The notes below the pieces were generated by a model that was not told where the DNA came from, ran no database searches, and saw only the letters and a program-made list of their open reading frames with translations. A stretch of DNA of 36,278 bases from Psammoneis japonica (lineage: Eukaryota), in assembly GCA_008632985.1 (NCBI GenBank), contig QPGO01000377.1, forward strand, positions 1 to 36,278, given 5' to 3'. Shown here one piece after another: positions 1,851 to 36,278 of the stretch. Numbering within the stretch: the first letter of the stretch is position 1; every line of letters begins with the position of its first letter. Both the position numbers and the translations under genes were made by a program.

Positions 1851-1872
1851 TACAATATGGTAGCGATTAAAG

Positions 1873-10499: not shown

Positions 10500-13400
10500 C
10501 TGCACTGTTTTACTGGTCATCGGATGACACTGTTTGTTGCTGCTGCTGCCAAATTCTGCACCATCTGCTGCAGCACCAGATTCCATTCATGCAACATCAC
10601 ACTTCCATCATCTTTTTTGTTTCTTCTGGAGATGCTCCCTGTCTGCAACTGTTGGTCACTGCAAGGAATGCAATGTGCCACCCCGCAGCACCCATTGTTT
10701 TTCACATCACACATGCAACCCGCTGCATGTTTTGCAAGCTTTGCATTTGAAACCAACAAGCTCCTGGGATGTCTCACACTGTTTGAAGTGTGATAACTTG
10801 GTGTGGTTGTGCACCTTGCACTCCATGTAGCATGTGATTCTTCACCTGTCCTTTGGGTTGGTGCAGCCAAAGCACGGTGTTTTTTGTTGTCCAACTGCAA
10901 TGAGCATGTCTTGTGGCACTTGTTGCCACAGTTGACACAAGGTGTTGCTCCATTCTCCAATGTTTCCTTGCATGCGCAGCATGTTCATTACTCCTGTTCT
11001 TGGTCAGTGTCCTTTTCAGCCTCTTCCTCTTCAACTCTTTACCAACACTCCTCCACCAACTCTTTGCCAATGTTTTCTTCTGGCTCCCACATTTTTTGGT
11101 TTGTGACCCAAAGTACGAGATGCTTGTTCTGGCGCTTCCTGCATCTGAGCAATGCCTTGACTGACCGTTGATCCTCCTCAAGTTCCTCCAGCTTGTTGCC
11201 TGTTTCATTGGTGGCTCTTTCCTTGGTGGCATTTGCATCGTCACCTGTTTTGTCAGTGGCATTCGACAGTTGTGTGTCATTGTCTTTGCTCATTTTGCCA
11301 TTTGATTTTTTCTTGCCGGTGCCACTGCCTACATTAATTGTGTTTGCTTTCTCACAAGTCCCTTCTTTACTTTTTTTGTTCGTCATTTGCTTTTTGGATC
11401 CCTTCCCTTTCTTGGAGCTCTTCTTGTTTCCCTTCTTTCTCTTCTTCTCCCTTGCTTTCACAGCCAGCAACCCCCGCCCAACAGTGCCCTCCATGATCAT
11501 GTTGTTGAACTGTCTCCTTTCTGCCACGATGTAGTTGACTGTTGCAGTTGGATTCTTTTGGATGTTCTGTGAAGAGTTGGTTGAGTTCCTCTTTGTTAAA
11601 CAAGTGGTCGGGTCCCTGCTCTTCTTTGGTTTCTTCTGAGTCGGTGCCTTCATTTGTTGTGTGGTCTCCCATTGCATTCTTCTTTCCCCGTGTCAATTCT
11701 GCCCTTGCTTCCTTTGTTGCCTGTGAAACTTGTTCAAATTCTGGTCAGAGAAGGACACGACAAGACAAAAACTGCATGGCACACTCACCTCTTGAATGTC
11801 ATGCTGCATCTCTGCCTGCCTTGTTTCTGGTTCTCTGTTTCAAAGCAAATCCTGGTGTTGACCTTGATCCTCCTTTCTGTCCATGTTTTCAGCATGGTCC
11901 CCTGTGCCTCCAACACCTGCTTCCTCCCACGCCCATGCTCTCTCCAACCCTTGGTCATCAGCACTCCCAGAAAATGATCCTGTCTCATGTTCCACACCCT
12001 CGCTGTCACTGTCATTGATTTCTGTTGGAACTGTGATTGAATCTCAGTGTGCCACCCCATCCGTTTTGGTGTTGCCATTGTTTCTTCTGGCTTGATCACT
12101 GTTCCAACATTGGTGTGCTGTCCAGTCGTTGTTTGCAGGATGACTTGATGTTGGAACAGTGTTTGCATCTCTGGGTGCTGCCCACTTGTTGTGTGCAGGA
12201 CCATGCAGTGTTGGAACAGTGTTCAAATCTCGGCGTGCTGTCCAGTCGTTGTTGGCAGGACCCTGCAGTGTTGGAATGGTGTTTGAATCTTGGTGCACTG
12301 TCCAGCAGTTGTTTGTCAGACAACTTGGTGTTGGAACATTGGTTGAATCTTGGGGCACTGTCCACTCCTTCTCAGTGGGATGACTCACTCTTGGAGTGGT
12401 GTTTGAGTCTTGGCATGCCATCTGCTCCTTGGCAGGGTAACCCAGTCCTCCACTGGCAATCCGCAGTTTCAATCTGTCACTGCCAAAGTCCAAGGCCTCT
12501 TCTACCTGTCTTGCAGCATTTGCTTCAAAAATGACTGTCTTGAACTGGCCAAATTTGATGCCACCGTCCTTGCAATGTGGCATCTTTGGCAGAATGGTGC
12601 AGTCTACATTGTGCTCTCTTGGCAACCTTGAAACATGCTTTGGTGACTTCATGACCATTTTCTCAAAGTGGAAAACTGCAACAGTTCTCCTTTCTAGGGT
12701 CATGTCAACCCATTTGGTGCTGTTCCTGATGCTGAGGCAGTGTCCACAACAGTGGGTTTTCAGAGAATCATTCAGTTCCCTTGTCTTGCGTGTCTTTTCT
12801 GCTGCAACAATTTTCGTGCCACAACTGTGCTTCTTTCTGTGGGGAACAAAGCCATCTGAATGCTTGTAGCCATGTTCCCTCCAAGTGACTTTCTCCATGT
12901 TCAACAACCAATCGGATGTGGAAGGCAGCACTCCATCCCACCCACATTGGTCTCTCGGCTGTCCATTTTGCGGCATCTCAGAACTTGCTCTCATTTTCTC
13001 TCATGCCACAAGCTGCTGACACCACCAACAGCATTGCCTCAATGTTGTTAATGGCATCCTTCTTTATCTTCTTCATGAAAGAGTCATGCTTCTTCTTGAC
13101 AGATTCCCTGTCAGTCTCGTCAGCCACCTTTGTGGAGCTTGCTCCATGGCATTTCTTGACAAGATGAGTGATGTGATCTTCCATTGCTGCCTTGCTTTGT
13201 ATGTTGTCATGGTCAAACAGCAGAGTGATGCTGTGGTCTGTTTTTCCTCTCTGAACATCCAGTGCCTCTTGATGGCAACCTTGCCATTGCTGCTGTTTCC
13301 TCCAAAGGTGCTCGTGATGTCCCAGAGAGCCCGTGCCATGGTTGCCAGACTCATTTTGTTCCTTCTTGTGGGTGCAACAGCAACATCTCCAACGTGCTCT

Positions 13401-14300
13401 CAAAAACTGTGTTGTTGTGTTGCATTTTGGCTTGGCTGAAACTTTGTCATTTTGCTGGGATTTCAAATCTTTGCTGTTGCCTCCTGCACATTCCAGAAAC
13501 ATCATTGTCATTTTTTGACATCCATTTCGAATTGTGTTCTTATTTGGGATGCAATGTTTTCAATGAATCCAATTTTGAACAATTGCAATTGCCGTCCATT
13601 TAAAGTTGGATAACTTTTGAAATTTGTGTTTGTTTTTGGCACAGTGCACCGCAATTCACATGATGACATCACATGCACAAAGTCAGATGACACCTGTGCT
13701 ATCCATTCAACAGCACAGCAGTACAAGCGTCCTTCTGTGGTGTGACATCACCAATGCAAAGTCAGAATTTCTCTGATTTTTGTATGCATTTGCGTCTCCC
13801 TTGATGCACGTCAAAAATGGGAAGTCAGATTTTTTGTTGCTGTGCACTTTACAACTGCGAATTGCATGGGTTGTGAACACACAATGTTGAGAGCAACAAC
13901 AAGCAAAAATGCCAACAATGACTTGGCTGTGTCCACAATGAAATTTAAATTCATCCTAAAAAATCTAGCAGGCATGGAATCATAAGACTTGCACATCAAA
14001 GATGGAGTGCACATCCTTGGAGACATTAGCAAGTTGATGCTGAGTGCAAGAAAGAATGGGAGTTCCCATTCACCATCAGAGGCTTGTCATGTGAGGAAAA
14101 GACTATACCTGCACTGTGCATCCTTCCAGCATGGCCTTGTTAAAAATGTTCGAACACCACAATGGTGAAGTCACACACTGCAACAAAACAAATGATGCCA
14201 TGGGCAACTTGGTTTGCAAGGACAACTTGGTTTTTCTTTTGTGGGGTGGAGACGAAGATTACATCCTTGACCACCCTGATGTCCCATGAACCTGCCATTT
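10500..14300 (-). mobile_element. Degenerate DDE transposase gene (Sola2-like) with C-terminal chromodomain and PHD finger
   Basis: Relic motifs in order on the minus strand: (Q)DEFKFHCGHSQV ~13930-13960; FLECAGG ~13480-13500; HGTG.WD...FGG...IKR ~13270-13345; RKKHS...THCCGHCL ~12735-12845; 20-aa repeats; Lys-rich linker; chromodomain VKALLRCRKRQNKHLVLWVTNQKMWEPEENIGKELVEE ~11045-11165; PHD-like CCAC...CVNCGNKCHKTC...CFGC ~10860-10985. Confidence 0.45.
12100..12425. repeat. 60-bp minisatellite (~5.5 copies) encoding 20-aa repeats on the minus strand
   Basis: Period-60 units TTGGAAYRGTGTTYRAATCTYGGYGYRCTGTCCAGYMGTTGTT...; they translate as WT..xDxNTxPT...ANN in ORF 12044-12994. Confidence 0.9.
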
Positions 14301-15770
14301 CAAAAGTGCCGAATTAGTTAGAGTTGAAGCATCAACCATTCATGGCTGAAGAATGGGCACACATGAGACCTGTGGCATGGTGGGTCCGAGACTGTGGCAA
14401 TGACCTTGTCCCTGATAAAGACCAAGAAGTCAAGGACCGTCTGTGTGGCAATGTCAAGGACCATCTGTGCGGCAATGAACCCAACAACCTAGCCTGAGTT
14501 GCTTGATTGTAAGATTAATTTGTACAGTTCTTTACACTAATGGGTTTAGCAAAATCTGACCACAAAGCACCAATGGGGGAGTGGGGCTGGTGGACACCAA
14601 ATTGAGGTGACAACTTGTCTTCACAGACAACCCCGGTTGTTGGGAAGGCTGTGGTTTGTGCAGCAGAATCACTGGCCATTCGACGCAAACTGTAAATTAA
14701 CAATTATCAACTGCTTCATTGGTTGGGAAGGTTAGCCACATCTTTGTCCAAAATTGCAAGGACAAAATGGGTGTACCGTCCCTCTCCAGAAAAATCAATC
14801 TGGTCATCAAACAATCTTGTTGCATGACACACACACCCAACAAATTGTTTCAAATGCTCTTGATGTAGTCGCTCTTTCTGGAACACATCATCCTCCCCCA
14901 CAAACAGATCCATGGTCCAGCAGTTGATTACTTCTGGAATCAAATCAAAGAGCTCCATCTCTCTGCAATGGAATGAATGTGATCTCAATGCTGGATGAAC
15001 TCCACATTGGAACAATTCCACTAACTTCTTTGCTTCAAAAAGGATGCCATTGATGTCCATGACTAGTCCATGACAAGTGCCCAGGAGGAAGGTCTCCTTG
15101 GTCTTGACAAGCTTCACAAGGGGGCTGCATGCCCCATTGTTGTCCATGCCACATGTGGGCAAGCCAGATCTTGACTTGCACCCAATGTCTTGGATGTCAT
15201 CCTTGCTGAAGACCAACTGCCACTTGTCCCCCAACAAACTAGCAATGCAATGATCCCCAATGCACTTCTCTGCACTGTGTCATTGATGAGGACAGTGTGT
15301 TCTGCCTTGCCTTGAGGCTCGGCATCCAAAAATTTGCCAACAGTCTTTTGTCTTTGTCGCTTCATGGGCTCACAACTTCACATTTGTGTGCAACTCTCTA
15401 ATCATCATGGATGGAGAACATCTTTGTAATGGTGAACACTTGCTTCTGTTGTCTCCTCACTCCACCCGGCCATGTCTTCATGGACTTCTGACATTGTCTT
15501 GTGCCTGCAATGCCAGAGCTGCCTCCAAAGGCCCAAGTCTGGTGGGTGCCCCCAATGAGACAGTGGTGCATAGTCAGAGTCTTCTTCCTTCATCACCACG
15601 AGATCATCCAACACATGTTGTAGTTGGCAATGTCAAGCCATGCTTGGCCAACCGCACTTGCATTGTGGCCCTCACGGTGATTGCCCTGTGAGTTTCCGTG
15701 AGGGGCCACATTCCTGTTGGAATTGTTGCCTTTAAAAAGAGACACTGAGACATTCAATGTAAACAGTTCA

Positions 15771-15972
15771 GCAAAGTGATCCAGTTTTTGGGCCATTTCC
15801 TTCCCAACCAATTCCTTCACAAACTCCCATTGTTGTCTCAAACGTTCCTGCGTGCCAACATGCAAATTAAAGCAAAGTGATCCAGTTTTTGGGCCATTTG
15901 CTTTCCAACCAATTCCTTTGCAAACTCCCATTGTTTTTTCAAACGTTCCGGCATGCCAACATGCAAATTAGA
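15771..15972 (+). repeat. Tandem duplication, 101 bp x2
   Basis: GCAAAGTGATCCAGTTTTTGGGCCATTT... begins at 15771 and 15872. Confidence 0.95.
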
Positions 15973-16188
15973 GGACTTGTGTCCATGGCACATGATGATC
16001 TGGGGTCATTCTGACGACGTAAAAGTGCGTGGATTCCCAAGAGAGATTCGAAAGTCCTCGGAAAGTTGCAGCTGTTGGCCTTGTTGCATGCCTTTGCACT
16101 TTTAGGAGCATAACCCCAAGACTCACTGAGCACACTGTGCAATGGATCCACCTTTTTGTCTTTGAAATGCTGGTGAAGATGTGGCAGC

Positions 16189-16336
16189 AAAAAAAGACAG
16201 ATCTAAATTTAAAGTGCTATCACTCCTTTGCCAGCTATGCCGGCACTGGCTGACCCACACCCCCAGCACACAGTTAAGTGTGGCAGGAGCTTGCACGGGA
16301 TTAGCCGGAATTGGTGTCACCAGAAGGTGACACCCC
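16189..16336 (-). ncRNA. Conserved structured 3'-terminal RNA module, copy in the SINE-like element
   Basis: 24-nt perfect identity (16214-16237 vs 31220-31243) within a ~150-nt homology. Stems GGUGUCACC/GGUGACACC, CCACAC/GUGUGG and CUCCU-GCC/GGC-AA-AGGAG. Ends in a U-run. Confidence 0.55.
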
Positions 16337-16518
16337 ACCAAGATAACTGAAAAGGACTGATTCACATGAGGGATTTATTGCATGCTTGTTGATGACAGCC
16401 ACAGAAGGCACACCACAACTGCAACAGACAATTGCGTTCGGATAGGTTCTTAAAATAGTCCACAAAAGGAGCCTTGAAGGTAAGACGAGCAGGTCATCAG
16501 AGAAAATATTCATGGCAT

Positions 16519-16933
16519 GTAGAAACAATAATGTGTCTTTCATAGAAAAGCCGATGGGAGCAGCAAACCAAAGACAATCAAATGGCACCACAGGATGACT
16601 CGCATTCTTGCCGAAAAGGGCCGCAACAGAAGCAGCAGCACATTCACCACAAAGAGTGAAGTACTTGATTGCACGGTAGAGAAAAAGAATGCTGAAGACC
16701 GATTGGCAAGAAGTGACAGGTAAATTGTCAGTGGTAACACGTAGAAACAACACCAGATCTTGCGTAGAAGAACCGATGGGAGTAGCAAATTGACGACAAT
16801 CAAATGACTCCGAAGGACAACTGACATTCTTGCTGAAACGGGCCGCAACAGAATTAGCACTTGCACCACAAAGAGTGAAGGACTGGATTGCACGGTAAGG
16901 AAAGGAAGTAGCATTGAAGACCAATTGGCAAGG
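16519..16933. repeat. Internal diverged tandem repeat (~222 bp x2) of the SINE-like element
   Basis: GTAGAAACAA...CCGATGGGAG...GGGCCGCAACAGAA...CACCACAAAGAGTGAAG...TGAAGACC.ATTGGCAAG begins at 16519 and 16741. Confidence 0.9.
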
Positions 16934-16965
16934 ATAAAAGTAGGCCAGAGAAGTGACATGTAGAT

Positions 16966-17216
16966 TCATCGTGGGACCCCACAAATACGGAGGGACCCGC
17001 AACCCGGAAATGTGTAGAGTTCTACGTGAATGTATGGGGACTGTTCACGTAGGTTTTGTACCAGAGCTATCTCGCGAACTAGGCGTTTTTTCGGATTTTT
17101 GTCGTAGAAACTGTACCAGTTTTGCGTATGTAGGCTACATGTTTCAGTACCACATACAAAAATTCGCGTAGAGCTCTACAGGAGGGTCCCTCCGTATTTG
17201 TGGGGTCTCACGATGA
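16966..17216. mobile_element. 251-bp MITE with 33-bp TIRs and 4-bp TSD (AGAT)
   Basis: TIR TCATCGTGRGACCCCACAAATACGGAGGGACCC with 1 mismatch. AGAT at 16962-16965 and 17217-17220. Empty site CATGT-AGAT-CGTCAGC in the paralog at 23086-23101. Subterminal inverted repeat TGTAGAGYTCTACGYGAAT. Confidence 0.95.
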
Positions 17217-18784
17217 AGATCGTCAGCAGCATCTGCGGATCCGCGTAGAATTTGTACTAGAACCTGTGTAGAAAATTTTCTGAGACAACAGAAAATTACG
17301 AGAAATAACAACCAGCATACGAACCAACAGGCCGCAACACTCGTCGTTTTCCACTGATGAACTTTGCTCATCATGCTGTAATGAGGATGTACCATTGGTA
17401 AACGGGGACAAAATGGGCTTGTTGGAGCCAAAACAACACCGTCTGAGAATGGCAACATCAGCACGAGAACTCGCGTAGTAGAAACACACGCAGGAGGTTG
17501 CTAGTGGGAGCTTACGTAAAAGAGTGAAGATGTGGCAGCAGTTTTCCCATAAGATCATAAAGGCAGTAAGTGGCAGGCATTTCTCCATCTATCATCATTT
17601 TGGTGGCAGTAAACAGACAAATGGGCAAGGTTGGATCAGCTTGGTCAGGTTCACAGTCACTCTCTCTTCAACGGCAGATAACTGGAATCCCACGTAAGCT
17701 TTCATTTTGAATGAAACAGTTGAATTTGTCATTGCTGTGGTGACCCTGCATTGCTTTTTTCAACCACCATGCAATGTGGACACTTGTTTCAGGCTTTTCA
17801 AGTCTGATGACACAGGCAACCATTTTGGGTCCTGCAAAACAAGATTTGTTTAATGCACTTGTTGTTAACTCTGTCAATTTCCTTCAGTGCAATGAGTTTC
17901 ATCCCACCCATGGATAAGTCAGTTGGCATTGCAAAGCTGCTCCAGAATTGCCTGTTTTTTCCTTTGTAATTCGTTCGTGGATACCCTGCCAGGGTTTGCC
18001 AGGCATTTCTGAAGGACATGGACGGTCCTTTCCTCCATGGAAGTGAAAGTGTCGTCACAATCAGAGCACAAAAAATGTTGGCATTGTTACCTTCTGGGGA
18101 GCACGGCAGAGGCACCCTTGGCTTGATCACGGATGGGTCCATGTTGGAGTGCCCATCATCAAACAAGACATGGGCATTTATTGTGGCATTGTCGATGTCA
18201 GCAAACTTTCTTTTGCGGAGAGTAGATGGGCGTAGCTGGTGGGATTTGGAGAAGAAACATTGTGGGTAACTATCCGCTTCATTGTTCAATGTGGTTTTGT
18301 GAGACTCTTGCAGACCCAATTGCCACTGGGCAAGGCAGTGGCTGAAATGCCAAATCCTGCAGGGTCAAGTGGCTTGCTTTGTTTTGGATGAGAATGCATG
18401 TTTTGGGTTTTTATTGCATTCGTGGAAGGGAATTTTCTCTGCAACTTAATGAACCTAATCTGAGTAACATTGCCCAAGGTAGAGAGGTCAGAAGTAAGTC
18501 AGCCAAGTGGAACACCAATTTTGGCAAGAACGCCATTTGACATGATTTCCCAGCTCAGGAATTCCTTGAACGATTCGGTGTTGTCATTGTCCGAGCAATG
18601 ACGCTTCCACAGATCAGTGCCAGCAAACAATTAAACCTCCAATGCATCCTCGTGGGTGACATGCAACCAATGGCATTAGACTTTGGAAAGATGTTTTCGA
18701 AGACACATGTTGCTGTGGATAGAGTGAGACAGTGGACCATGGCGACTCAGGAAAGGGTTTTGGCTTGTGGTCAGCCAGGAGAAG

Positions 18785-18801
18785 GAGAGAGAGAGAGAGA
18801 G
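18785..18801 (+). repeat. (GA)n microsatellite
   Basis: About eight consecutive GA units. Confidence 0.85.
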
Positions 18802-20481
18802 CAATGTTGGCAGTTGAGTTGTCCAGGGAATCTGTTGTTGGTGACAATGGAGGAGGACTGTCAAGGGCAGGTTGCGATGACACATCTGAACTAACGTCAG
18901 GGACATTGGCAACAACCGGTAGTTCGGGAGACTGTTCTGGAGTCAGTGTTGAGCTGTGGGAGCAGTCATCACAGGCTGGCAAAGAGCATTCTGGTGAAAT
19001 GCCAGTGTCTGCAGAATCAGCTTGAAGTTTGGGAGTGTGCTCTGGAGTCATTGGCATGGCAGGAGGGCTGTTGGAGTCAGCTTGGAATTTGGGAGTGTGC
19101 TCTGGAGTTGTTGGTGTTGGCATGCCGGCATGGCTGTCATGAGAAAAGTTGCCAACGTCTGGGGCCAGCACTTCTTGACAATGCAAAGGGGAGTTGTTCA
19201 TGTTGTCCAAAGGAACAGGGGGATTCTTTTTCCAACATTTAGAAGCACAAAAATCAGTGCAAGCAGCATCAATGCCATTAGGAATGGCTGCATTTTTTCC
19301 AAATAATGCACCACCCGACAAGCCACACGAGCGTCTTCAACACATTGTGGATGCTGCCACCACCGCGAGGTGCCAGATGTTGCAATTGCAAAATCTCACT
19401 TGAATTTTTCCTGTTTGATTCTCAATCAATGCTTGCGGTGATGCTTTGCATTGTGAGCTTCTTTGCCTTTGTGACACGTTGCGATGGAGTCCCTGCATGC
19501 AAAGGACAGTTCTCATGTTTGACATTTCCATTGGACTTCTCAGAGCAAAGGACTTTTCCTGTCTTTTTGTTCTCACAGCATTTCTTTTGAGATTTGTTGT
19601 TGCACAGATGTTTGTCCTCATCCTCAAGAGCAGCAATTTCCTCTAGCATTAGAGGAGGACAATCGCATGCATCATTTAAAAAATCAGTGATTTTTTCTGG
19701 CATTGGAGAAGGAGAATCGTGTGGCCTCTTGAAGTGCTCAGATTCAGAAACATCTTTGAACATTGTGGCCTGGATGCCTGCCGTTTGGACAGACCGTGAA
19801 TTTCCAAAGCCTGAGCAAAGAGATGGCCTTGGGTGGGAGGAGCCATTGTGAAAACAAAAAATGGAGGTGAAAGTGCATTGCAATCAAAGTGTGCACTGTT
19901 GGCAAGGTGTGAACTGTCACAAAAAAACAGACACAATGAGCATGAAGAGCAACGGTGTGTGTGTGGAAATGACAATGGAACAAAACGGTGCAGTTATGAA
20001 ACACAGGGGATTCTGACCTTACATCATGACGTATCACTGTCAAGCAAGAATCTGACAAGGCGGTCATGATGTCATCTCATGATGTTTCACCATGTGGCAA
20101 GAATCTGACATGGCATGTTGAAATGGGGGAGAAGTGATCGCCAAGTGCCTGGGTTTCATTGCAATCAACAAGCCATGAAAACTCTCATCTACAATGAGGG
20201 CATGCCAATCTAAATGTCCAGACAGGAACACAACAAAACATGGCTGTTAATTTAAAAAAGTCTTGTGTGACATGGTCAAGAAGTGGAGGGACATCAACAC
20301 AAGGGAGGTTCCGGGGCAAAGTCACTTGAGGTGGTGCACACCTAACATGGAAACCCAACACGAGGGACTCCCTTGAGATTGAGTCCCTTGCCATGGAAAA
20401 AACACCCTCAAGCTGTGCAAAGTCTGGTGAAACCCACATCCTGTGTGTCCCAAACAACTGTTGTTCTTTTGACAAAAATGA

Positions 20482-20941
20482 CATAAGCAGTGATCACCTC
20501 CATTTTGTGGGGAAAAACCGTTAAATAATTTAGTGGATGGATGTGTTTCAATGATCATATCTCTCCCTCAAACACCATCATCCGAATAAACCCTCAGTGT
20601 CTTACCCCCCTTTGATGTATGAGGAATTCGCTTCTGCTGTTCCTTTTCTCCAAAAATGCAATTTTTGAGACCATTAAATAATTTAGTGGACACATGTTTC
20701 AATGATCATATTTCTCCCTCAAACACTGTCATCCGAACAAACCCTCAGTGTCTTACCCCCCTTTTGACACACAAGAAATTTGCTTCTGCTGTTCCTTTTC
20801 TTTGAAAATGTGATTTGAGAAAAAAGCCGTATGTTCGGATGACAGTGTTTGAGGGAGAGATACTTTGATCATTGAAACACATCTATCCACTAAATTATTT
20901 AACGGTTTTTTCCCACATAATGGAGGTGATTACTGCTTATG
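20482..20941. mobile_element. 460-bp foldback/MITE with ~105-bp TIRs and an internal 153-bp tandem duplication
   Basis: CATAAGCAGTGATCACCTCCATT...CATCCGAA (20482-20585) is the reverse complement of ~20834-20941. 20518-20670 is duplicated at 20671-20820. TA dinucleotides at both ends are compatible with a TA target duplication. Confidence 0.9.
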
Positions 20942-21049
20942 GGATCTGATCAGCCCATGGTGCCAGTCAGTTTATAATTCTATTGTTGTAGCATTCATGC
21001 CATGTTAGTTGGCACAGCATGTAGAATGCATGTGGACCACCTCTCAAAA

Positions 21050-22260
21050 GTCAAATTCTGCAAATTTTCTCTCAGATCTTTGATGAATCTCCTCTTAAAT
21101 GGGTCCATGTGGAATTTCAACACATTGTCACATTGCAGATGGCAGCTGTTCCTTCAGACAAAGATTTACTGTGGCAAGCTTGCAGTGTGAACTTGGCTGT
21201 TCAGCATCAGTGCCTGTTGTGAATGAAGGATTCCAGTCAATTGAGACATCACAATTGTGGAGTCTGATGCTGACATTGCCAAAATGGTAAAGTGCATGGC
21301 ATCTTAATGTGGAAGGTTGAGTTGTTGTTTCAGATTGAAAGGATACAGGCTTCTTTGGTGTGATGGGTTCATGATCTTCAGCATCATGGAAACAAATCAG
21401 TGTGGCTGCAGATGCCACAAAGGACATTCTGGCCATCACCAGTCAGCCCAATCTTGTCAAAAAGGAAAGTGCAACTGCAATTGTCAACAACTTGGCAAAA
21501 TTTGAGCCTGCTAATTATTACTTGCATGAAGATGCATTCTTGGATCTGTTGTTGCAAAAGTTGGGAGCACAAAAGGCACCTTTGCATCATGCTGTTTGCA
21601 CTGCTGATGCACCAGATGAATTTGTTGCTCATGATGAGCATCACATGCATGAGTTGCCATTGGAAGGATTGGCACTCAGGGAAGACAATCATCAGGTTCA
21701 TTGCACATTGAAAGAGGATTTGGTTAATGCCCCTGGATGGGCTTGGATTTCTGAGTTCAATGCAGCATGATGCATTTTGGTCTTGGGACAACCATTGCAA
21801 TGGTGGCAAAGGAGAACTCAATGAGTGCACTGCTCTGGCAAAAAGCATCACCAAACAGTTCATCACATCAATGAGAGGGTGCATCCATTTGAGACTCTTG
21901 CAGAGAAACTTACAAAGTCATTTGTAACTCTTGTGTCCCAACTGGAAATGTTTCAAACATCAGAGGAGGTTGAAGCTTTGTAGAACTGAATCCAGACTGT
22001 TGACCCCAAACTTGTAGATTGCAAGGCCATCATCAGTGAGATGCATGGAAGAGATTTTGCAGGAGCATGTGTGTGTTTCTCATCCCAAGTGTCTTGCTTG
22101 CATGGTGGAGCACAACTGGAAACTCATCATTTTTTCAGAGAAAGATTTCAGAGACAAGCCGAGGTAGACCTGGTCATGTTGGACAATGTGGAGGATGATT
22201 CTATGGAAGTGGCAGAGGTGGTTGAGGAGCTGGAAGAGATGGTGGGTCTGATCCAACCAA
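21050..22260 (+). mobile_element. Ty1/Copia-type gag relic
   Basis: APLHHAV...PDEF...HELPLEGLALREDNHQVHCTLKEDLVNAPGWAWISEF, then DH.NG.GE and HGRDF...FSSQV; matches the PL.G..F..DN..V...LK...GW.WI...HY.G pattern of Copia gag. Many expected Tyr appear as His or Cys. Confidence 0.6.
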
Positions 22261-22652
22261 TCCATTTCAGCAAGCAAGTGGGAATGTCTGTTGTGTGATG
22301 GGCTTGTTGACAGAAATTGAAGATGACTGGGTGGAAGAAAGCAATAACTCCTTACTGCTGTCTAAATAGCAGATATGAGTCTCCGTGCAGAGACCGTTAC
22401 AGGAGCCGAAAGACTGGCGTTGTGATGTTGGTGCTACTGTTGTTATTCTTGTGAGCCGAGTGGCTCGAAAGCAAACTACATCACGTGACGCACGCGGAAC
22501 TAAGAGCACACATAATTGTGTGTGATAAACTAAAATCCTGTTCAAATCCTGTCACTTGTGTTCATGCACTGCAAGCTCATGATGGGGATGAACAACACTG
22601 GATGAGGACATGGCGGGGGTTGGTTTGGTGGTCATGGCAATGGGGGCACCAA

Positions 22653-22928: not shown

Positions 22929-22939
22929 TATTTTTTCTC

Positions 22940-23400
22940 CCAAGGACAACTAACATTCTTGCTGAAAAGGGCCGCAACAGAAGCAGCACTTTCACCACAA
23001 AGAGTGAAGGACTTGATTGCACAGTGAGGAAAAGAAGCAGTGTTGAAGACTGATTGGCAAGGATAAAAGCAGTCTGGAGATGTGACATGTAGATCGTCAG
23101 CAGCATCTGCGGATCCACGTAGAATTTGTACTAGAACCTGTGTAGAATATTTTCTGGACAACAGAAAATTAGGAGAAATAACAACCAGCATACGAACCAA
23201 CAGGCCGCGACACTCGTCGTTGTCCACTGATGAACATTGCTCATCATGCTGTAATAAGGATGTACGATTGGTAAACGTGGACAGAATGGGTTTGTTGGAG
23301 CCAAATCAACACCGTCTGAGAAAGGCGACATCATCAGTGCAAGAAGGTATGTAGAAACCCACGTAGAAGCTGAGGGCGTGTAGCTCCTGACATCAAAAAG
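22940..23400 (-). mobile_element. Truncated second copy (5' portion) of the SINE-like element
   Basis: Aligns with 16811-16965 plus 17221-17523 without the MITE. Homology ends near the same terminus as the full copy. Confidence 0.9.
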
Positions 23401-25749
23401 TGTGTCTTGCATCACAGAAAACAGATGAACAACTGGCACAACACAGTTTTGAAATGATGCCCCATTGACTCAATGTTCATTGTGATGATGGTTGCATGCC
23501 ACAGCAGCCCTGTCTCGCAAAAAGTGCACTCGCATCTACATCTTGCATGGGGTGAGCCCATGTGTCATGCAGCAGGACTCATCACTCATGGTGGCAACCA
23601 TGACTGAGTGAGTTGTTGCAGTTTCTGCAAGGGAGGATGGATGAAGGCCAGGCATTGCATTAAAAATGACATTTTGACAACAACAGTTTCAATTTTTGGT
23701 TGCAATAAAAAAGATTCCATCACAATTGTCTCATGGAGCAGGTGCAATTTAAGGCACCATGCAAACCAAGGCACACTTCCATTGGCCTGACCCACACACT
23801 GCAGTGCTCGCTGGTCTTGAAGTGGGTCTGCAGCAAGGAAGCACAACACAACAATGGTTGGACCAAACACAAGGGGCAACGTGGTTACACGACATCACTG
23901 TGGTGCGATGGCACAGTGGGAAGCCCCATTGGCGCTTTTTTTTGACGAGCTATGAGCTCCACTAAATTTTCATGAGCTTGGGTTAAACTGTGTGCCATGA
24001 ATGTGGCACTAAGCCTGTGGGAGACAGTCGCATCAACAACAAAATGGAAGATAAAACATTTTTGACAACACTAAACACTTTTAAAACAATTGTGGCTAAA
24101 CCAGTCTAGACCACTCATCACAACAAGATGGAATGGCACACCCAAGTTCACTGCAACTCCCCTCATGCCATTGCCATTGACTTCACCACCATCTGCTGCA
24201 CCTTGCACCAGAGTGCACCACCACTTTGACACCTCTTGGACCACTTCTTTGGTTGCAGTGTCACCTGATTCCAAAGACTGGATCTTTGCTTTCAGCTTTG
24301 AAGCTCAGTCATGATCCTTTTTGCTTTTGTCAGGGGGCTGGCCTCTGCTCATGCAACCACAACAAAAACAACATGGTGCACAAGCCCTGCTTGTGTGCAG
24401 TTTTTTGATGTCACCATTCTTCTCACTGTAACTCTTTGCCTTTGTGGCTGGAAGCAGCTCTGGTGGCTTGGCTCTCATTTCTTCCTTCTTGTTTGCATCT
24501 TCCAAGTGTCATGCATTCCAGCCAGCTGCTCTCAACCTCTTGCCACATGGGAAGCAAACAACTCCAACCAGCTCTTAAGTTTGGTCTGTTCATGTGGTTT
24601 GTTCACAATTCCAGATTGAACCCCCATCATTCTGTGTTGAAATGATGTGCTGCCATTTTGATGCTTGACCTTGCTGCTCCAGCATCTTTTTTCACCTCTC
24701 TCAATGTCATGTCATTGGTGGCAGGACCGCAATCTTTTCTCTTGAATGTTGCCCAAGTCTGTGCCAAGATGTGTGGAAGGCTCACAAGATGCATTGCCAC
24801 TGCACTTGTTGTCTTGATGAAAATTAACCACATGCACAAAGAGATCTTCACCTCTGCCTCTTAATTTGTCTGGAACAAGCTTGAGCCAATGTGAGAGGCT
24901 GTAGCTTTTGCACCCTTCACTGCCTTGTGTGCTGCCACAACTTTTGGGTTATCAGTGGCACACAATGTTTGAGAAGAAGTGAGTCACAAAAGAGAGCTTT
25001 GCCTTCTTTGCATCTTCCTGTGTTTTGGGAAGCTTCAAAGGTGGTGCCATGATTGATCTTTGAAGGGAAAGGAGTGTGCCAAATCTTGGTGGTGTCCTGC
25101 ACAGAAATCAGCATTGTTTCCATGTGTGACACAAAATTGCCTTAATGGGAGACATTGGTCCTGTCATCAGTCATGAAATGTTTTTCGAGGGACAGAAAAT
25201 GACAACATGGAATTTCAGAGTGGGATGGCACATGTCAAAACTTAAAAGCGGAGCTTGTCCAAGGCACATGAGTTGCCAGTCACCAATGGTTTTCCTCTTT
25301 CCTCACCACTTTTCAATTCACCATGGGGGAGCAGCTCACAATCTAGATGATTGCCCACTTTTCACACTGCTCTACATTGAAGTGGTGCTTTGACACATCA
25401 TTTGAACTCATTTGCATCAACCATGACTAATCTCCCACCAAGCAAACTTGTCTCATGAATCCTCTGTCCAAGACATTCACCCCAGAGAAGTGTGCATCAC
25501 ACACCCATGGTTGCATCACTTTTGCATCCTGCCAAGCCATCACCACTGAGGTGGGCAATGCTGAATGCTGCCTCACATTCAACATCAACAAACGCACTGC
25601 AGCCAACCCATCCAGATTGTCCCCCACTGACCTCAACACAATGGTCATTTTGACCTGTTCCACCAGCCACCAGTGTCATCCTTGACATCCAAGCTAAAGA
25701 GCATGAGACCATTGGCAAAAGATCTCTCAAACAACCAGCAAATTTGCAG

Positions 25750-31195: not shown

Positions 31196-31341
31196 AAAAA
31201 AACCAAATCTATGTTTGCAGTGCTATCACTCCTTTGCCAGCTAAGCCGGCGCCGGCTAACCCACACTTCCAGTGCACCATTACGTGTGGCAGAAGCTCAT
31301 TGGGATCAGCCGGACGGGGCGTCACAGTGAGATGACGCCCA
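31196..31341 (-). ncRNA. Conserved structured 3'-terminal RNA module of the LINE
   Basis: Hairpin GGGCGUCA/UGACGCCC, then CCGGCUGAUCCC...CUUCUGCCACAC...GUGUGGGUUAGCCGGCGCCGGCUUAGCUGGCAAAGGAGUGAUAGCAC...U7. Homologous to 16189-16336. Confidence 0.55.
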
Positions 31342-34300
31342 TCCAAAGTAGCAAGCGATGGAGCAAGTGCCACGAAGTGCTTCACGCTTCACCTTCTTTA
31401 GGCTTTCTTTTAGATGTGGTTTTACCACAGCAACCCAATTCATAATCAGTAATGTAGAGTGGGAAATGTGATTGTCAACTGAATCCAGCAGCACCTCTCT
31501 GTCTTTAGCCAAGTGATCCTGTCATTTGTTGTAAATGGCCGTGAGCTCAGCTTCTGCCTGATGGCGTAAAGATGATTTCCTCGAATCTGAGTCGTGACCA
31601 TGAACCTCTTTATTGTGTTCTTCCCACAGTTCCCACCAGGACTTCCAAATGTGAGTTCCTGTCTGTACTCCCCAAACAGGAGGGGGTTGATTCTCTTTCC
31701 TATATTTCTCCAACAGACCCGTCTCATGAAGATGTATCTCCTGAAACACATTCCAAAGGGTGGAGCACCATCCATTGAAAACTTGTCGCCATCCTATCTC
31801 TGACTGGGCTTTCCACAGCGTTCTCAGCATCGGGGTAATGTCAGATTCATACTGCATCTCACCTCTTGGCCATGTTTCAAGTGAAGTCAGCAGCAGATCG
31901 CTTAGAGGTGGCATTGTGTCAATTTTGTCACAGTATTTTCGTAAGCCCTGTAGGAATTTGCAATGCCAGGCCTCATTGGCAGGACACCGTAAAACATGGT
32001 CTCAATCCTCCATAGGGCATTCGCACGTAAGGCAATGTTGTGGCGGTACAGGGTTGTACCGATGAGCAATCTTGTTTGTTGTAAGGAGCTTGTGGATGAG
32101 TTTAACCATTGAGACATGTTTCTTGGAGTGCCTGCACACCAATGTTGCATGGACCTTCCAGTCGATCTTTTCTGTGATAGATTCATCCCAATCATTTCTT
32201 TCCCGAACATATGATGCTAAGAGAGCGGGAGCCGTAGCGGCACATCTGACTGTGTGGATTTCATTCCTGCAGTGACCGTTCCATCAGTGAGGCACAGGTG
32301 TGATTGGCCAATGGGGAAAGGGAAGCACCTCGGTTGTGTCTGAGTCATATTGTCCCTGGCATCATCCTGCCAACTTGTCTGCACGTACGTTGACTTGTCC
32401 ACTCAGTGGGAGGGTCTCAACTGGAGCCTGTCTATCCTGGTGTCCTTTTACCCAAGCTATGGACAGAGCTTGCCCGGGGGAAGAAGGATTTAGAGCCTGA
32501 GAAATGGCTTCAGGCATTAAGTGTATTTCATTGATGACATTCCAATTGGATGAAAGAACATTGGCATCGTGCTGTCGTAGATAAAAGTCTCGGTCGGAAT
32601 GCTCCTGTGCCGACGGATCAATGGAAGGACGGCTATAAGACAATCTAGAAAGGACTTGGACCAAGGCCTTGTTATCACACCAGTTGTCGACACCTTCTTC
32701 ATATGTTGACATCTTGCAGAACTCAATCAAACGATAGATGAACCAAATCAGGGAAAGAAAACCATACGCCTTGGCTCAATAGGATGATGGCGAACGACCA
32801 AACACCTGACCAGCACAATCCACTGAGGGTCTGCCATTGAATGTAATAGTCCATCCGAAGGTGGCGTCATGATGAAGTACGGATCTGTCACTCCCCGCCA
32901 CGAGGCGACTTGATACAAAATAGTCCACTAGTTCATAAAGGGAATGTGGAAATCAATGTCTGAAAAGAGAGAGGACTCCCAGGGAGGCAATGCTTGTGAG
33001 CGGTCTGCGAATAGGTCGGGTAAGGGTGGAGTTGTTTCAACCGAGAGTTTCGGGTGATGAGGAATGTATTTCCATCTGCCATCTTCTATGGAGACAATCT
33101 CAATGGGGAATGATGAGTCAGAGGGGGAGGGAACCATTTCGATTTGGTGAATCAACGTAGCGATAGTGTCCTGGACCGGAAAAATGTCAAATCCTGATGG
33201 AGATCAAACGTATAAGTATGACTCTTCGGGAGACCAATGCGCTGAACATTGCATCCTCATTTTGGAAGGGGGCACTAGCCAGTCTCCTAAGGGAGCTTTC
33301 AGATGAACTGAGTCTTGATGGCACAACAATCCACATAACCGTATCCAAGGATTTTATGCATGGTGGCAAGGTTTAATCTGTTCGACGTTGTTGAGGGTAC
33401 CAACACTGCTAAGGTACGTAGGATCACCATAAACTTTGGACTCATCTAAGAAGCATCCGTCCGCCAGAGTGATATCCGAGACTGTCAGGACCCGAAGATG
33501 CAAGCGGCAATAGTTGATCCATTGGATCTCTCTAGAAGAGAATGCTTGTGACTCCAGAGCAACATCCATTAAAAACTGATTGTTGACTCTTTGCAAGGGG
33601 AGGACACCGTCTTGGGATAATGTAATGTATCCTCCAATGTGCTGTAGAAATGACCGAACGGATGCAAACCACAGCGACTCATTATGTGGATGAGGAGCAT
33701 TGACATCTCTGAGGAAGCTAACCCCCGTGCCTAGATGCAGCTGATTCCATGCAATGGCAATGTGAACCACGGCGCATGGTTGGTCGTCTTGTGTAAGATG
33801 CTGTGCACCTCGAGAATGTTTCAACAGCTGTTGCATTTGGGCAATGCCCTGCTCAACATCGAAGCATCGAAATCCACCGCCACCGCAAGATTGCAGGCTG
33901 TATAGAATCAGACGCTTAGCATTCCTGTTGTAACTGCATTTGGCAAACACAACTCTCATAGCACGTTGCTGCATTTGTTTCAACACTTTGGAAGCGAAGT
34001 GAGAGTTAGCGAGAACAAAAGACATCGACGGCAAACAGCACGCATGGCAGCATCTTCATGATTCGGTCCGGTCTAGAGGGACAGCCCGAATGAATAATGC
34101 TCCTCCATCACTCTTGGCTTGGAGCACTTGTTGCTGTTTCTTTAACGTCCTGGCTGGGGAAGGGCAGTGTCCCAGTGTTTTATGTGGAGCAAAGGGGGAC
34201 AGCTGCTTGCCATGTCTGGAAGTGGAGCGATCGGCTGAGAAAATTTCCACTGACACATCCTGATTATACGGTCGGAGGCTCGGTTTGCCAAATTCTGAGA

Positions 34301-36278
34301 AGTCCCAATCTACTGCATGAAAAGAACACTTGGGTAGTTCTAGTTCATGTCCACTTGCGTGGAGCAAGTCGCACCAGAGTTGGTTATCGTGCTGCAATTT
34401 GGGAGCTAAATCTTCTGCAGAAGGCTGAGGAGATGCCCTGATGTCATTCACTTGCTTGGACGTGTCGTCTACACATCCTCTTGTGTAGATGTTGAGCTGA
34501 TGACACCTATCTGGTGATTCGAAGAATGCGCCATTAGCCTTGGAGTCAAAGATATCAAACAGAATGCTGCATAAATTGTTCCAGTAAAAAGGGGAGTTGT
34601 CACTGCCTTGACCAGCAATGTAGATGGGGAATTCTGCATTGTGTGAGTGCGATTCCTCAGAGAGACCTAGCAAGGTGAGCAACCAGTAGCTAGGGTTCAT
34701 CGTCGGAGATGCTCAATCAGTAGAGCCCTAGCTTCAGTCAATCCGGACGTGGACTACTCGCTGTCAAGAATAAGATCTGCCATGATGGCATTGCCTTCAT
34801 ACCCCAGGTCTATCGACAAAGGAGGAACGGTCAGAGGAGTGCCGTGAGCCTGTCCAAAATGGTTTTGATTCCGTGCTGTCAGGGCTGCTGTGACATCTTG
34901 TGGAGCATCTGTTGTTTCCCAGTTTTCACATTTCTTGGGATCCTCTAGAGGATGAGCCGGGACCTGTACTTTGCTGACACTGGAACCATCCTTGTCTTCA
35001 AATGCATTGATTTTTCGGAATGCTCGAACCATCTCTTCTGCACATTGTATGTTCCAAAGAATCTTTGCCTCTTCAGTCGCTGCCTTGGCACCCTCTAAAT
35101 CTCCAGTTCTGCGATCCGAGCGTCACGTTCGCGTTCACAGTGATGTAGACTGTCGCGAGCAACTTTTTTACATTCGGACTGGGCACATTGGAGAGCATTC
35201 TGACATTCCTCCACAGCAGTCAGGAGAAGGAACGACTCCTTTAATTTGCATTTTTTGTGAACAATTGATTCCACAAAGGTAGTCCTGTTTTTAAACATGG
35301 AAAGAAGGCAAGACAGAATGAAGACTTTGCCATGCAGGTCTACGAGTTTTTGAGACCACTCTGGTTCATGATAACGCCTGCAGTGTTTTGCTGCTGAGAT
35401 ACAAAATTGTGTTATATCGCAGTCCAACCTTTCTGCAAGGGCATGGTCCGGCTCCTCTGATGCAAGGAGAGCTGCACTTCTATCTAACACATTTTGACCA
35501 TTGAGCATTGGACCGATGGCTTCGAGACAAGTCGTGACATGCTTCGGTGACTTTGCGAGGAGGGTTTGATGGGAGGGGCGAGGGAGCTCTGCGGAAGAAT
35601 TGCCAAACAACAGCTCTGTATCAAAGTCCACACAGCAGGTGCGGTGGTCCAAGGAAATTCTATATCTGGAGGATTCGCACCCACATGTTGTGACAGCGTG
35701 GAGAGCTCCTGAGGTGGCAAGGACATAATCAAGTTGACGGGATCTGTGGAAATAGGCAGCGAACTCAAGGTCCTGTATTTTGTTGTGCATCACGTTGGAA
35801 AGCTTGAATCGCATTGCTGAGCGGGCCAGTGAGTCAGTGTCATTTCGAAAATCAGTGTTAAAGTCACCAAACAAAACAACTTCCTGATTATGATCATCCA
35901 GGAATGTTTTCAATGTCCGGAAGAGATCATGACAAAACGCATGACGTGGCTCCAGTCTTGCTCGACCTTGCTGGTGCAATGAGTTAACTTGCTGGGCGTA
36001 GGCTGTAGTTTTACCTGTGGTGGAGGAATTGTTAGAGCACACATGGCAGCACGAGATAAACATGACTTGTTTCCCTTGTTTGCCATCAAACATTTGTGTG
36101 GACCATCTTCCCAGTGGATCTAGCATCTTGGTGTGGTGGCGAGAAGCAACTGAATTGCATGACATGATTGCAGTGCCACCAGGCTTGTGTGGAGTTGTAA
36201 AGGGGATGGATGATGCCAAGAAGGTGACCCGGCCGTGGTGGAGGGTGTTTTGGATGACAGAGCGGCAAGGTTGTGCAA
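31196..36278 (-). mobile_element. Non-LTR retrotransposon (APE endonuclease + RT + RNase H + C-terminal Cys/His motif; Ambal-like), degenerate, 5' part beyond the window
   Basis: APE: PGGTAI, DPLGRWS, LFGDFN, QLDYVL, LDHR (35095-36219). RT: GQGSDNSP, GCVDDT, LELPKC, KTLG (34056-34700), then GGGGFR. RNase H: GSD.SV..TFGW, S(YR)A.AYG, WCDNKALV, WVKGHQD, NVRADKLA (~32360-32910). CLTC...E..DHVLRCP near 31980-32035. Stop at 31306, then a short 3' UTR. Confidence 0.92.

What the first reader, a model, noticed from the sequence alone, without database searches (positions are those of the whole stretch)
16173..17540. Candidate LINE/SINE-like partnership: a 1.1-kb non-coding retroelement carrying the 3' end of an Ambal-like LINE
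Seen: 16190-17523 is bounded by a perfect 17-bp direct repeat (GTGAAGATGTGGCAGCA), and removing it restores the host reading frame (DLMGKLLPHLHQHFK). Its last ~150 nt match the LINE 3' end at 31196-31340, with a stop codon at the same position (TCC GGC TAA vs TCC GGC TGA). The rest is unrelated to the LINE sequence present here and contains a 222-bp internal tandem repeat. A second, diverged copy (22940-23400) begins at about the same 5' position, suggesting a defined family rather than a 5'-truncated LINE. I see no convincing tRNA-type A/B boxes. Known: long variable TSDs mark target-primed reverse transcription, and SINEs of stringent LINEs share the partner's 3' tail. Inference: a non-autonomous family mobilised in trans by Ambal-like RT; I am not aware of one being described, but cannot check.
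Basis: partly seen in the sequence, partly recalled or inferred. Interest (0 to 1): 0.85.

Follow-up and report, generated by a model that had tools for sequence, protein, structure and literature searches.

The report
LINE-tailed hitch-hiker retroposon in diatom
A 1.1-kb non-coding mobile element in a diatom-like genome ends in the same structured tail as a neighbouring LINE retrotransposon and most likely spreads by borrowing that LINE's copying enzyme, a well-known strategy that I could not find documented for diatoms.

Summary
Window 16190-17523 (minus strand, 1334 bp) is an insertion flanked by an exact 17-bp target duplication (2 matches in the window, 0.01 expected). It holds a nested 247-bp MITE. 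Its last ~150 nt match the 3' end of the degenerate APE-RT-RNase H LINE at 31196-36278 (114 of 150 positions), and similarity stops abruptly upstream.

The body has no protein homologue, no small-RNA head and no coding constraint. Contigs of one DNA run of the same organism cover the element at 27-157 times the flank depth. They show sharp edges, unlike flanks beyond the 3' terminus, and variable numbers of the 222-bp unit.

The shared tail is a module found in at least 13 of 17 metagenomic LINE relatives. It has two helices with compensatory changes, an AGYGAYAGC box, a TAGAT box and a T-rich end.

Verdict: a non-autonomous, LINE-dependent retroposon family, but not a SINE in the strict sense.

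- The "Ambal" label could not be tested.
- The "host reading frame" lies in TpA-depleted dead repeat DNA.
- Whether the body derives from the LINE's 5' region is open.

Unchecked notes of this scan describe similar ~1-kb retroposons in other diatom genomes.

The parts
16173..16189 (.). Target-site duplication, copy at the element's 3' side
   Evidence: Exact 17-mer. 2 matches in the window against 0.01 expected.
17524..17540 (.). Target-site duplication, copy at the element's 5' side
   Evidence: family D6.
16190..17523 (-). Non-autonomous retroposon, copy 1 (1334 bp; 1087 bp without the nested MITE)
   Evidence: Bounded by the TSD. Contig depth is 972-5665 inside against 36-37 outside. No protein homologue.
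16190..16340 (-). LINE-derived 3' module: last ~12 codons, stop codon, ~105-nt 3' UTR and T-rich end
   Evidence: 114 of 150 positions identical to 31196-31340. Covariance model R1 hit at 16184-16265, 60.6 bits, E 1.8e-11.
16301..16303 (-). TAA stop codon aligned with the LINE ORF's TGA
16516..16959 (-). Two tandem units of 222 bp; unit number varies among family copies
   Evidence: spacing 222, 77-80% alike. Contig joints skip 228 or go back 232.
16966..17212 (.). Nested MITE, a secondary insertion
   Evidence: 34-nt inverted ends, 97% complementary. Absent from copy 2. Contig joints skip it. TA observed/expected 1.1.
17213..17523 (-). 5' part of the element; the first ~65 nt are poorly conserved
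   Evidence: 93.5% alike to copy 2 over 17213-17460, then about 60%. Depth falls from ~5600 to ~1050.
22937..23402 (-). Copy 2 of the family: same 5' end, no MITE, 3' part missing
   Evidence: No R1 hit here.
31196..36278 (-). Degenerate LINE (APE, RT, RNase H, C-terminal region), cut by the window end at its 5' side
   Evidence: P0001 residues 52-1895 map colinearly, with residues 582-794 missing. Weak Exo_endo_phos hit. Several stops and frame changes.
31196..31340 (-). LINE 3' module: end of the ORF, 3' UTR and T7 end
   Evidence: R1 hit at 31191-31271, 54.1 bits, E 6.5e-10.

Best explanation
Window 16190-17523 (minus strand) is one copy of a high-copy, non-coding, non-autonomous non-LTR retroposon family of a diatom-like genome.

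Its 3' ~150 nt are the 3' module of a resident LINE lineage with endonuclease, reverse transcriptase and RNase H. The module comprises the last codons, the stop, a two-helix 3' UTR, an AGYGAYAGC box, a TAGAT box and a U-rich end.

Inferred mechanism:
1. A transcript of the element is bound through this module by the LINE's protein, supplied in trans.
2. The endonuclease nicks the target.
3. The freed 3' end (...GCAGCA on the plus strand) primes reverse transcription on the U-rich RNA end.
4. A second nick 17 nt away gives the 17-bp duplication.

The body (about 940 nt, with a variable number of 222-bp units) does not derive from the LINE coding sequence seen here. Whether it derives from the LINE's unseen 5' region is open.

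Shown: the insertion, the TSD, the shared module, the family and its 3' terminus. Inferred: trans-mobilisation, the transcription mode and the nick positions.
For: - The TSD is exact and non-random.
- The tail is homologous to the window LINE.
- The same module sits at the 3' end of at least 13 of 17 inspected metagenomic LINE relatives that share only 31-50% protein identity with P0001.
- A model built from 9 tails finds 4 untrained LINE tails, and in the window it finds only the element and the LINE.
- Helices: 89.1% of 110 cells pair, against 40-60% in slid controls, and 6 of 14 pairs show changes on both sides. On 13 tails, 91.5% of 141 cells pair and 7 of 12 pairs show such changes.
- Family: 760 contigs of run X1 lie on the stretch. 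Depth is 972-5665 in the element against 36-37 in the flanks. 16 contigs end their likeness at 16189/16191 with unlike flanks (agreement 0.45-0.46). Joints remove or add a 222-bp unit and skip the MITE.
- Copy 2 shares the 5' end.
- The body has no hit: 0 hits among proteins of similar length, 0 of 1.84 billion representatives, 0 for the 5' part among longer proteins. Against the window, all six frames hit only the tail. Nothing was found against 34 LINE loci.
- There is no small-RNA head, and the element strand has 13 internal runs of four or more T.
Against: - Only two copies were seen as sequence. The family evidence is a summary of contigs from a run that is probably the window's own sample, so it shows copy number in this genome and is not independent confirmation.
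- The tail is only 76-80% identical to the window LINE: 36 mismatches, of which 8 are of the TA/CG to TG/CA kind. This LINE copy is therefore a relative of the partner, not the partner.
- The first ~65 nt are poorly shared, so the 5' terminus is less well defined than the 3' one.
- A frame ending at the LINE's stop is open over most of the MITE-less element, with one internal stop. This could be the relic of a coding origin.
Confidence: 0.8

Rival explanations
1. Internally deleted LINE derivative of the RIME/NARTc/SIDE type. The body would be the partner LINE's own 5' UTR and N-terminal region, joined to its last ~150 nt. This is a special case of the best explanation and differs only in where the body comes from.
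For: The frame that ends at the LINE's stop codon is open from the 5' end with one internal stop. In copy 2 it runs uninterrupted across the spot where copy 1 has that stop. Of the 4 small indels listed within this frame, 3 are of 3 nt and 1 of 1 nt. Relatives carry 95-180 codons upstream of the endonuclease domain, so there is a poorly conserved N-terminal region that could have been the source.
Against: There is no similarity of any frame to P0001 or to the 34 relatives' loci. No coding constraint is seen: dN/dS in that frame is 1.94 and 0.68. Relatives show no long tandem units upstream of the ORF. The test proper cannot be made, because the LINE's 5' end lies beyond position 36278.
Confidence: 0.3
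2. A plain 5'-truncated copy of a diverged sister LINE subfamily.
For: It has the same strand logic, the same stop-codon position and an open frame upstream of that stop.
Against: The ~315 codons upstream of the stop show no similarity to the C-terminal regions of the window LINE, P0001 or 34 relatives, which include a zf-RVT motif. Similarity to the LINE ends abruptly ~35 nt upstream of the stop. Two copies share one 5' end. Depth is roughly flat over the body, with no visible 3'-to-5' decline. A 222-bp unit is repeated in variable number.
Confidence: 0.04
3. A protein-coding hitch-hiker: the long frame ending at the LINE's stop encodes a real protein needed for, or exploiting, retrotransposition.
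For: The frame is 247 codons in the window (237 in the MITE-less sequence), and the longest open frame is reached by 2 of 2000 shuffles of the MITE-less element.
Against: With one tandem unit collapsed the frame is 173 codons, and 48 of 2000 shuffles reach that. The strand is A-poor and TpA-depleted, which removes stops. dN/dS is 1.94 and 0.68. There are 0 homologues. The atlas recognition score is 884 and its best score 0.78, values typical of non-proteins.
Confidence: 0.04
4. Not a retroposon: a DNA transposon, a segmental duplication or a chance repeat.
For: None beyond the presence of a MITE inside it.
Against: The element itself has no terminal inverted repeats. It has a 17-bp TSD. One end is a LINE 3' module scored at E 1.8e-11 by a model trained mostly on other organisms' LINEs.
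Confidence: 0.02

Closest known systems
SINEs that share the 3' tail of a 'stringent' partner LINE (for example UnaSINE1 with UnaL2, or CR1- and RTE-tailed SINEs; recalled, not read here). Repbase treats SINEs as composite non-autonomous partners of non-LTR elements (PMC5753468, passages read).
   Same: A non-autonomous body joined to the partner LINE's 3' end. A structured tail presumably recognised by the reverse transcriptase. A variable-length TSD. High copy number.
   Different: There is no tRNA, 7SL, 5S or snRNA head. The element is 1.09 kb long. It has 13 internal T runs that should stop RNA polymerase III. It has an internal 222-bp variable tandem array.
SVA of hominids (a composite, VNTR-bearing, L1-dependent retroposon; recalled)
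   Same: About 1 kb or more, non-coding, no polymerase III head, an internal tandem array whose unit number varies between copies, and mobilised by a LINE.
   Different: SVA relies on a poly(A) tail and the relaxed L1 enzyme. This element carries the LINE's own structured, U-ended tail. Its parts have no identified sources.
RIME/ingi, NARTc/L1Tc and R2 SIDEs (internally deleted derivatives that keep both LINE ends; recalled, and named in scan notes)
   Same: Non-coding, of similar size, with the partner's 3' end.
   Different: Sharing of the 5' end with the LINE is their defining feature. It could not be tested here.
Putative SINEs of Phaeodactylum tricornutum (13 copies found by automated annotation; PMC5859163, passages read)
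   Same: Non-LTR non-autonomous elements reported in a diatom.
   Different: In the passages I read they have no partner LINE, shared tail, TSD or family structure described, and the copies are very short (1,454 bp in total). The present family has all four features.

Membership tests
SINE (strict sense) | 5' head derived from a tRNA, 7SL, 5S or snRNA gene, with an internal polymerase III promoter | tested here: not met
   0 tRNA genes. No Rfam match near gathering score over 15900-17800. 13 internal runs of four or more T on the element strand.
SINE (strict sense) | Short length (usually under ~700 bp) | tested here: not met
   1087 bp without the MITE.
LINE-dependent non-autonomous retroposon (broad sense) | 3' end shared with an autonomous LINE | tested here: met
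   Model R1 scores the element at 60.6 bits.
LINE-dependent non-autonomous retroposon (broad sense) | Target-site duplication flanking the whole element | tested here: met
   17 bp, exact.
LINE-dependent non-autonomous retroposon (broad sense) | No reverse transcriptase or other coding capacity of its own | tested here: met
LINE-dependent non-autonomous retroposon (broad sense) | Multi-copy family with shared termini at different genomic sites | tested here: met
   The 3' terminus is met: 16 contigs stop at 16189/16191 with unlike flanks, and depth is 27-157 times that of the flanks. The 5' terminus is shown by only 2 copies.
LINE-dependent non-autonomous retroposon (broad sense) | Mobilisation in trans by the LINE protein | not testable with these tools
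   Needs a retrotransposition assay.
Internally deleted LINE derivatives (RIME, NARTc, SIDE) | 5' end identical to the partner LINE's 5' end | not testable with these tools
   The window LINE is cut at 36278 inside its endonuclease domain. No genome is held.
SVA-like composite retroposon | Internal tandem array with variable unit number | tested here: met
   Two units here. Contig joints skip 228 nt or go back 232 nt.
Ambal clade (for the LINE) | Reverse transcriptase groups with Ambal reference elements in a phylogeny | not testable with these tools
   No reference sequences are at hand and the defining paper is not held. What was established: the domain order endonuclease, RT, RNase H-like motif, zf-RVT; relatives are commonest in Bacillariophyta; and LINE/Ambal is annotated in a diatom genome (PMC12803021, passages read).

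The most novel reading that the evidence does not exclude
A diatom LINE lineage (possibly Ambal) recognises a structured 3' module that ends in U rather than A. An unrelated ~1-kb non-coding RNA with a variable 222-bp array has captured this module. The result would be the first documented LINE-dependent, SVA-like hitch-hiker family in diatoms, present at roughly 80 copy-equivalents. The conserved helices and boxes give a ready-made map for testing stringent tail recognition in this clade.
Probability: 0.45. Interest if true: 0.55.

Novelty: new member of a known kind. Interest (0 to 1): 0.45.

Why it matters
Diatom repeat annotation is dominated by LTR elements. In the papers I could read, LINEs and their dependants are barely characterised: one automated list of 13 'putative SINEs', and RepeatMasker labels such as LINE/Ambal.

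This finding gives three things:
- a concrete LINE and hitch-hiker pair, with a defined TSD;
- a high-copy family;
- a 3' recognition module conserved, with compensatory base changes, across LINE relatives from several metagenomes.

It should improve repeat libraries for diatom genomes. It offers insertion markers for strain comparison. It also provides a testable model of how this LINE clade chooses its template. Conceptually it is an expected kind of element, not a new principle.

Tried and rejected
**Searches that gave nothing**
- No whole genome is held for the window, so copies, ends and TSDs could not be collected as sequence.
- A look-up of earlier scan notes by sequence found nothing.
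- Sequencing runs: 3 DNA runs of one sample were listed, and no RNA holder was listed.
- An exact-pattern scan of metagenome contigs for the 22-nt tail box gave 0 hits.
- blastn and tblastn of the element against the 34 LINE loci gave nothing beyond chance.
- A search for TSDs around 12 metagenomic LINEs found only 9-10-nt matches in 4 of them, which is inconclusive.
- TRF on the 34 loci found 5 arrays of period 30 or more. None is a long unit array upstream of an ORF.
- P0001 against PDB sequences gave 0 hits.
- RNAalifold on the raw 15-tail MAFFT alignment gave only the 4-pair closing helix. MFE folds of single tails were not significant (z -0.05 to -1.5 for 5 of 6, and -3.4 for L014).

**Readings considered and rejected**
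- Coding reading of the 247-codon frame: rejected.
- A weak blastp match of a non-ORF frame to P0001 193-274 (24% over 88 residues, E 0.007, filters off): judged compositional.
- Model R1's extra hit at L009 9257-9330 was checked as a possible hitch-hiker. It is the tail of a second LINE.

**Literature**
- The paper that defines Ambal is not held.
- Five full-text searches found no description of a LINE-partnered non-autonomous element in diatoms.
- Repbase and Dfam could not be consulted, so an existing library entry cannot be excluded.
Full report
**1. What is at the coordinates**

The 17-mer GTGAAGATGTGGCAGCA stands at 16173-16189 and again at 17524-17540. These are the only two matches in the window, even allowing two mismatches. 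The mean expected by chance is 0.01, and 0 of 100 shuffles gave two. The neighbouring bases differ on both sides. The repeat is therefore exactly 17 bp and encloses 1334 bp.

The LINE at the right end of the window is read on the minus strand, and its tail matches 16190-16309 in the same orientation. The insert therefore lies on the minus strand: its 5' end is at 17523 and its 3' end at 16190. It ends in ...GATCTGTC followed by six T, and the duplication begins with a further T.

A 247-bp MITE with 34-nt inverted ends (97% complementary) sits at 16966-17212. It is missing from the second copy. Without it the element is 1087 bp.

**2. The tail**

blastn aligns 16190-16309 with 31196-31314 at 80.2% over 121 columns, E 1.6e-19 within the window. 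In a MAFFT alignment 114 of 150 aligned positions are identical over the element's last 151 nt. Further upstream only 29 of 58 agree, with 39 gap columns. The similarity thus ends abruptly about 35 nt upstream of the aligned stop codons (TCCGGCTAA in the element, TCCGGCTGA in the LINE).

In the LINE copy the frame that ends at this TGA is the continuation of the C-terminal ORF through one premature TGA. The shared stop is therefore the LINE's real ORF end.

Of the 36 mismatches, 23 are transitions and 8 are of the TA/CG versus TG/CA kind. The tails are really diverged, and the window LINE is a relative of the presumed partner rather than the partner itself.

**3. The LINE**

The translated pieces gave only a weak Exo_endo_phos hit in Pfam. 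A search with the RT piece found one long relative, P0001: 1950 aa, E 3.5e-33, 37% identity. P0001 carries Exo_endo_phos and zf-RVT, and RVT_1 only below threshold.

P0001 residues 52-1895 map colinearly on 36261-31345, but residues 582-794 have no counterpart. The window copy is therefore internally deleted. It is also broken by stops and frame changes, and its RT motif reads CVDD where P0001 has FVDD.

An RNase H-like stretch (VKGHQD ... NVRADKLAG) aligns with P0001. P0001 has no sequence match in the PDB. Its nearest atlas clusters are eukaryotic, commonest in Bacillariophyta.

The name Ambal could not be tested:
- the defining paper is not held;
- Repbase lists Ambal as one of 32 non-LTR clades (PMC5753468, passages read);
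- a diatom genome paper reports a high share of LINE/Ambal (PMC12803021, passages read).

**4. The tail is a clade-wide module**

An alignment of P0001 with the window RT piece was used to scan metagenome contigs. Of 132 pattern matches, 34 loci encode relatives.

I inspected the sequence after the ORF stop in 17 of these loci. At least 13 show the same layout as the two window tails:
- a first hairpin;
- a short closing helix around a second hairpin;
- a box AGYGAYAGC(R);
- an A-rich stretch with (A/T)TAGAT;
- a T-rich end, as T runs, (TTG)n, (TTATT)n or (GCTATT)n.

In L003 and L024 I saw none of this. L002 has a possible variant. L006 is cut off.

In six paralogous copies from one assembly, likeness stops right after the T-rich end. 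This marks it as the element's terminus.

On an unfitted MAFFT alignment of 9 tails, my two-helix structure pairs 89.1% of 110 cells, against 40.0-60.4% when the partners are slid by 1-3 columns. 6 of 14 pairs change on both sides. The covariation score is 0.379 against 0.243 in shuffles, and 1 of 500 shuffles reaches it. One pair of the closing helix is C-G in all 7 metagenomic tails and U-A in both window tails.

A covariance model of these 9 tails (73 positions, 12 pairs) was run over 260,680 bases, the window plus the 34 loci. It gave 13 matches at E up to 1:
- the 9 training tails, with the element at 60.6 bits and the window LINE at 54.1 bits;
- 4 untrained LINE tails, two in L009, one in L008 and one in L001.

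One of the L009 hits belongs to a second LINE that lies tail to tail with the first. On the fitted 13-tail alignment 91.5% of 141 cells pair and 7 of 12 pairs change on both sides.

Caveats: the structure was derived from these sequences, and the second alignment is fitted to the model.

Single-sequence folds show that the first hairpin is kept in both window tails, with one U-A to C-G exchange.

**5. The body**

The minus strand has a 247-codon frame (16304-17044) that ends at the shared stop. In the MITE-less sequence that frame runs from the 5' end with one internal stop. I do not take it for a gene, for these reasons:
- The strand is A-poor and TpA-depleted.
- With one tandem unit collapsed the longest frame is 173 codons, a length reached by 48 of 2000 dinucleotide shuffles.
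- dN/dS in that frame is 1.94 between the two units and 0.68 between the copies (small samples).
- There are 0 hits among proteins of similar length and 0 of 1.84 billion representatives without length limits.
- There are 0 hits for the 5' part among longer proteins.
- The atlas values are typical of non-proteins.

All six frames of the element match the rest of the window only at the LINE tail. They match nothing convincing in P0001 and nothing in the 34 loci.

No tRNA gene and no Rfam family near threshold lies in the element. Its strand has 13 internal runs of four or more T. It is therefore not a polymerase III SINE.

**6. The family**

In the window a second copy (22937-23402) aligns with 16808-16965 (87%) and 17213-17460 (93.5%), and more weakly up to the same 5' end. 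It lacks the 3' part and has no model hit. Its break lies 8 nt from a small inverted-repeat element.

Logan contigs of three runs of one sample were laid on 16000-17720 at 80% likeness. This is probably the sample the window came from.
- 760 contigs of X1 lie on the stretch. Their likeness classes are 81 at 99% or more, 118 at 95-99%, 292 at 90-95% and 269 below 90%.
- Summed depth is 35.9 in the three left flank bins and 36.9 in the three right ones. It is 972-5665 in the element bins and rises within one 58-nt bin at the 3' end. The tool warns that summed depth is not a copy number, so I read it only as 'tens of copies or more'.
- 7 contigs lose likeness at 16189 and 9 at 16191, with unlike flanks (agreement 0.46 and 0.45). 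That is a shared 3' terminus at different sites.
- Joints skip 228 nt or go back 232 nt, so copies have one unit fewer or one more. Others join across the MITE site.
- 6 contigs leave the element at 16260 for a common sequence that resembles the window LINE's first hairpin. LINE-type tails therefore also occur several times.

Against a sharp 5' end: depth falls from about 5600 to 1056 in 17450-17507 and to 96 in the next bin. The first ~65 nt are only about 60% alike between the two copies.

**7. The setting**

Notes of this scan describe a TpA-erasing hypermutation of repeats in this diatom-like genome. I checked the window. TA observed/expected values are:

| Region | TA observed/expected |
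|---|---|
| Left flank | 0.17 |
| Right flank | 0.29 |
| Most of 7-26 kb | about 0.1 |
| Element | 0.56-0.69 |
| LINE | 0.47 |
| MITE | 1.1 |

The 'host reading frame' restored by removing the insert is open for 125 codons. It lies, however, in such depleted DNA, where TAA and TAG are rare, and the flanking frames have no Pfam match. It is not evidence of a gene.

The order of events suggested is: island, then element, then MITE.

At 13 of the 36 listed sites (of the 40 shown; 174 more were not shown) this copy keeps a TpA where most family contigs read TG or CA.

**8. Mechanism (inferred)**

1. A transcript of a source copy, probably made by polymerase II or by read-through, carries the LINE 3' module.
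2. The LINE protein made from an intact LINE binds that module, as in stringent LINE and SINE pairs.
3. The endonuclease nicks the plus strand after ...GCAGCA.
4. That end primes on the U-rich RNA end, with one A:U of possible microhomology.
5. The second nick, 17 nt away, yields the duplication.

**9. Comparison and novelty**

The element works like a SINE with a LINE tail but fails the SINE definition on two counts, head and length. The variable tandem array and its size recall SVA. If the body proves to be the LINE's 5' region, it would be a RIME/NARTc/SIDE-type derivative.

In five full-text searches I found no LINE-partnered non-autonomous element described for diatoms. What I did find:
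- 13 'putative SINE' copies from an automated annotation of Phaeodactylum (PMC5859163, passages read);
- RTE-like LINEs in two diatoms (PMC2806351, one passage read).

Repbase and Dfam were not available. Unchecked notes of this scan report comparable ~1-1.7-kb non-coding retroposons in other diatom genomes.

I rate it a new member of a known kind, of moderate interest.

Noticed in passing
window 16966-17212: Nested 247-bp MITE with 34-nt inverted ends (97% complementary). Its TA observed/expected is 1.1, so it is unmutated and probably young. Its own contigs reach high depth in another run (219 in X3). The TSD is ambiguous, 2-3 bp (GA or AGA).
   Followed up: partly
window 7000-26000 and the flanks 15000-16189 and 17524-18700: A large island almost free of TpA and CpG (TA observed/expected 0.04-0.3), next to normal genes at 1-6 kb. 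At 13 of 36 listed sites the element copy keeps TpA where most family contigs read TG or CA. This agrees with the TpA-erasing hypermutation noted elsewhere in this genome.
   Followed up: partly
window 31196-36278: The LINE copy is dead. The equivalents of P0001 residues 582-794 (the N-terminal part of the RT) are missing. There are several stops and frame changes. The RT motif reads CVDD.
   Followed up: partly
window 22652-22929: A small element with inverted ends (22652-22688 and 22893-22929) holds telomere-like CCCTAA repeats at about 22765-22805. It lies 8 nt from the point where copy 2 of the retroposon breaks off.
   Followed up: no
window 17459-17523 and 23334-23402: The first ~65 nt of the two copies are only about 60% alike, although the next 250 nt are 93.5% alike. 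Family contig depth drops about five-fold there. This could be a variable head, subfamilies, or 5' additions.
   Followed up: partly
window 15770-15971: A tandem repeat of 101 bp, two units, 91-92% alike, inside the TpA-depleted flank.
   Followed up: no
window 2741-3193 (+) and 3536-6068 (-): Ordinary genes at the left of the window: an exon of an undecaprenyl diphosphate synthase family gene (Pfam E 7.6e-37), and a Miro-like GTPase with EF hands and EF_assoc_2.
   Followed up: no
L009 9105-9190 (+) and 9257-9330 (-): In one metagenome contig two LINEs of different subfamilies lie tail to tail, 67 nt apart. Both carry the 3' module.
   Followed up: yes
L001, L011, L022, L014 (3' ends): Relatives of the LINE end in short T-rich tandem repeats, (TTATT)n, (GCTATT)n or (TTCA)n-like, instead of a plain T run. 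This suggests slippage of the reverse transcriptase at the template end.
   Followed up: no
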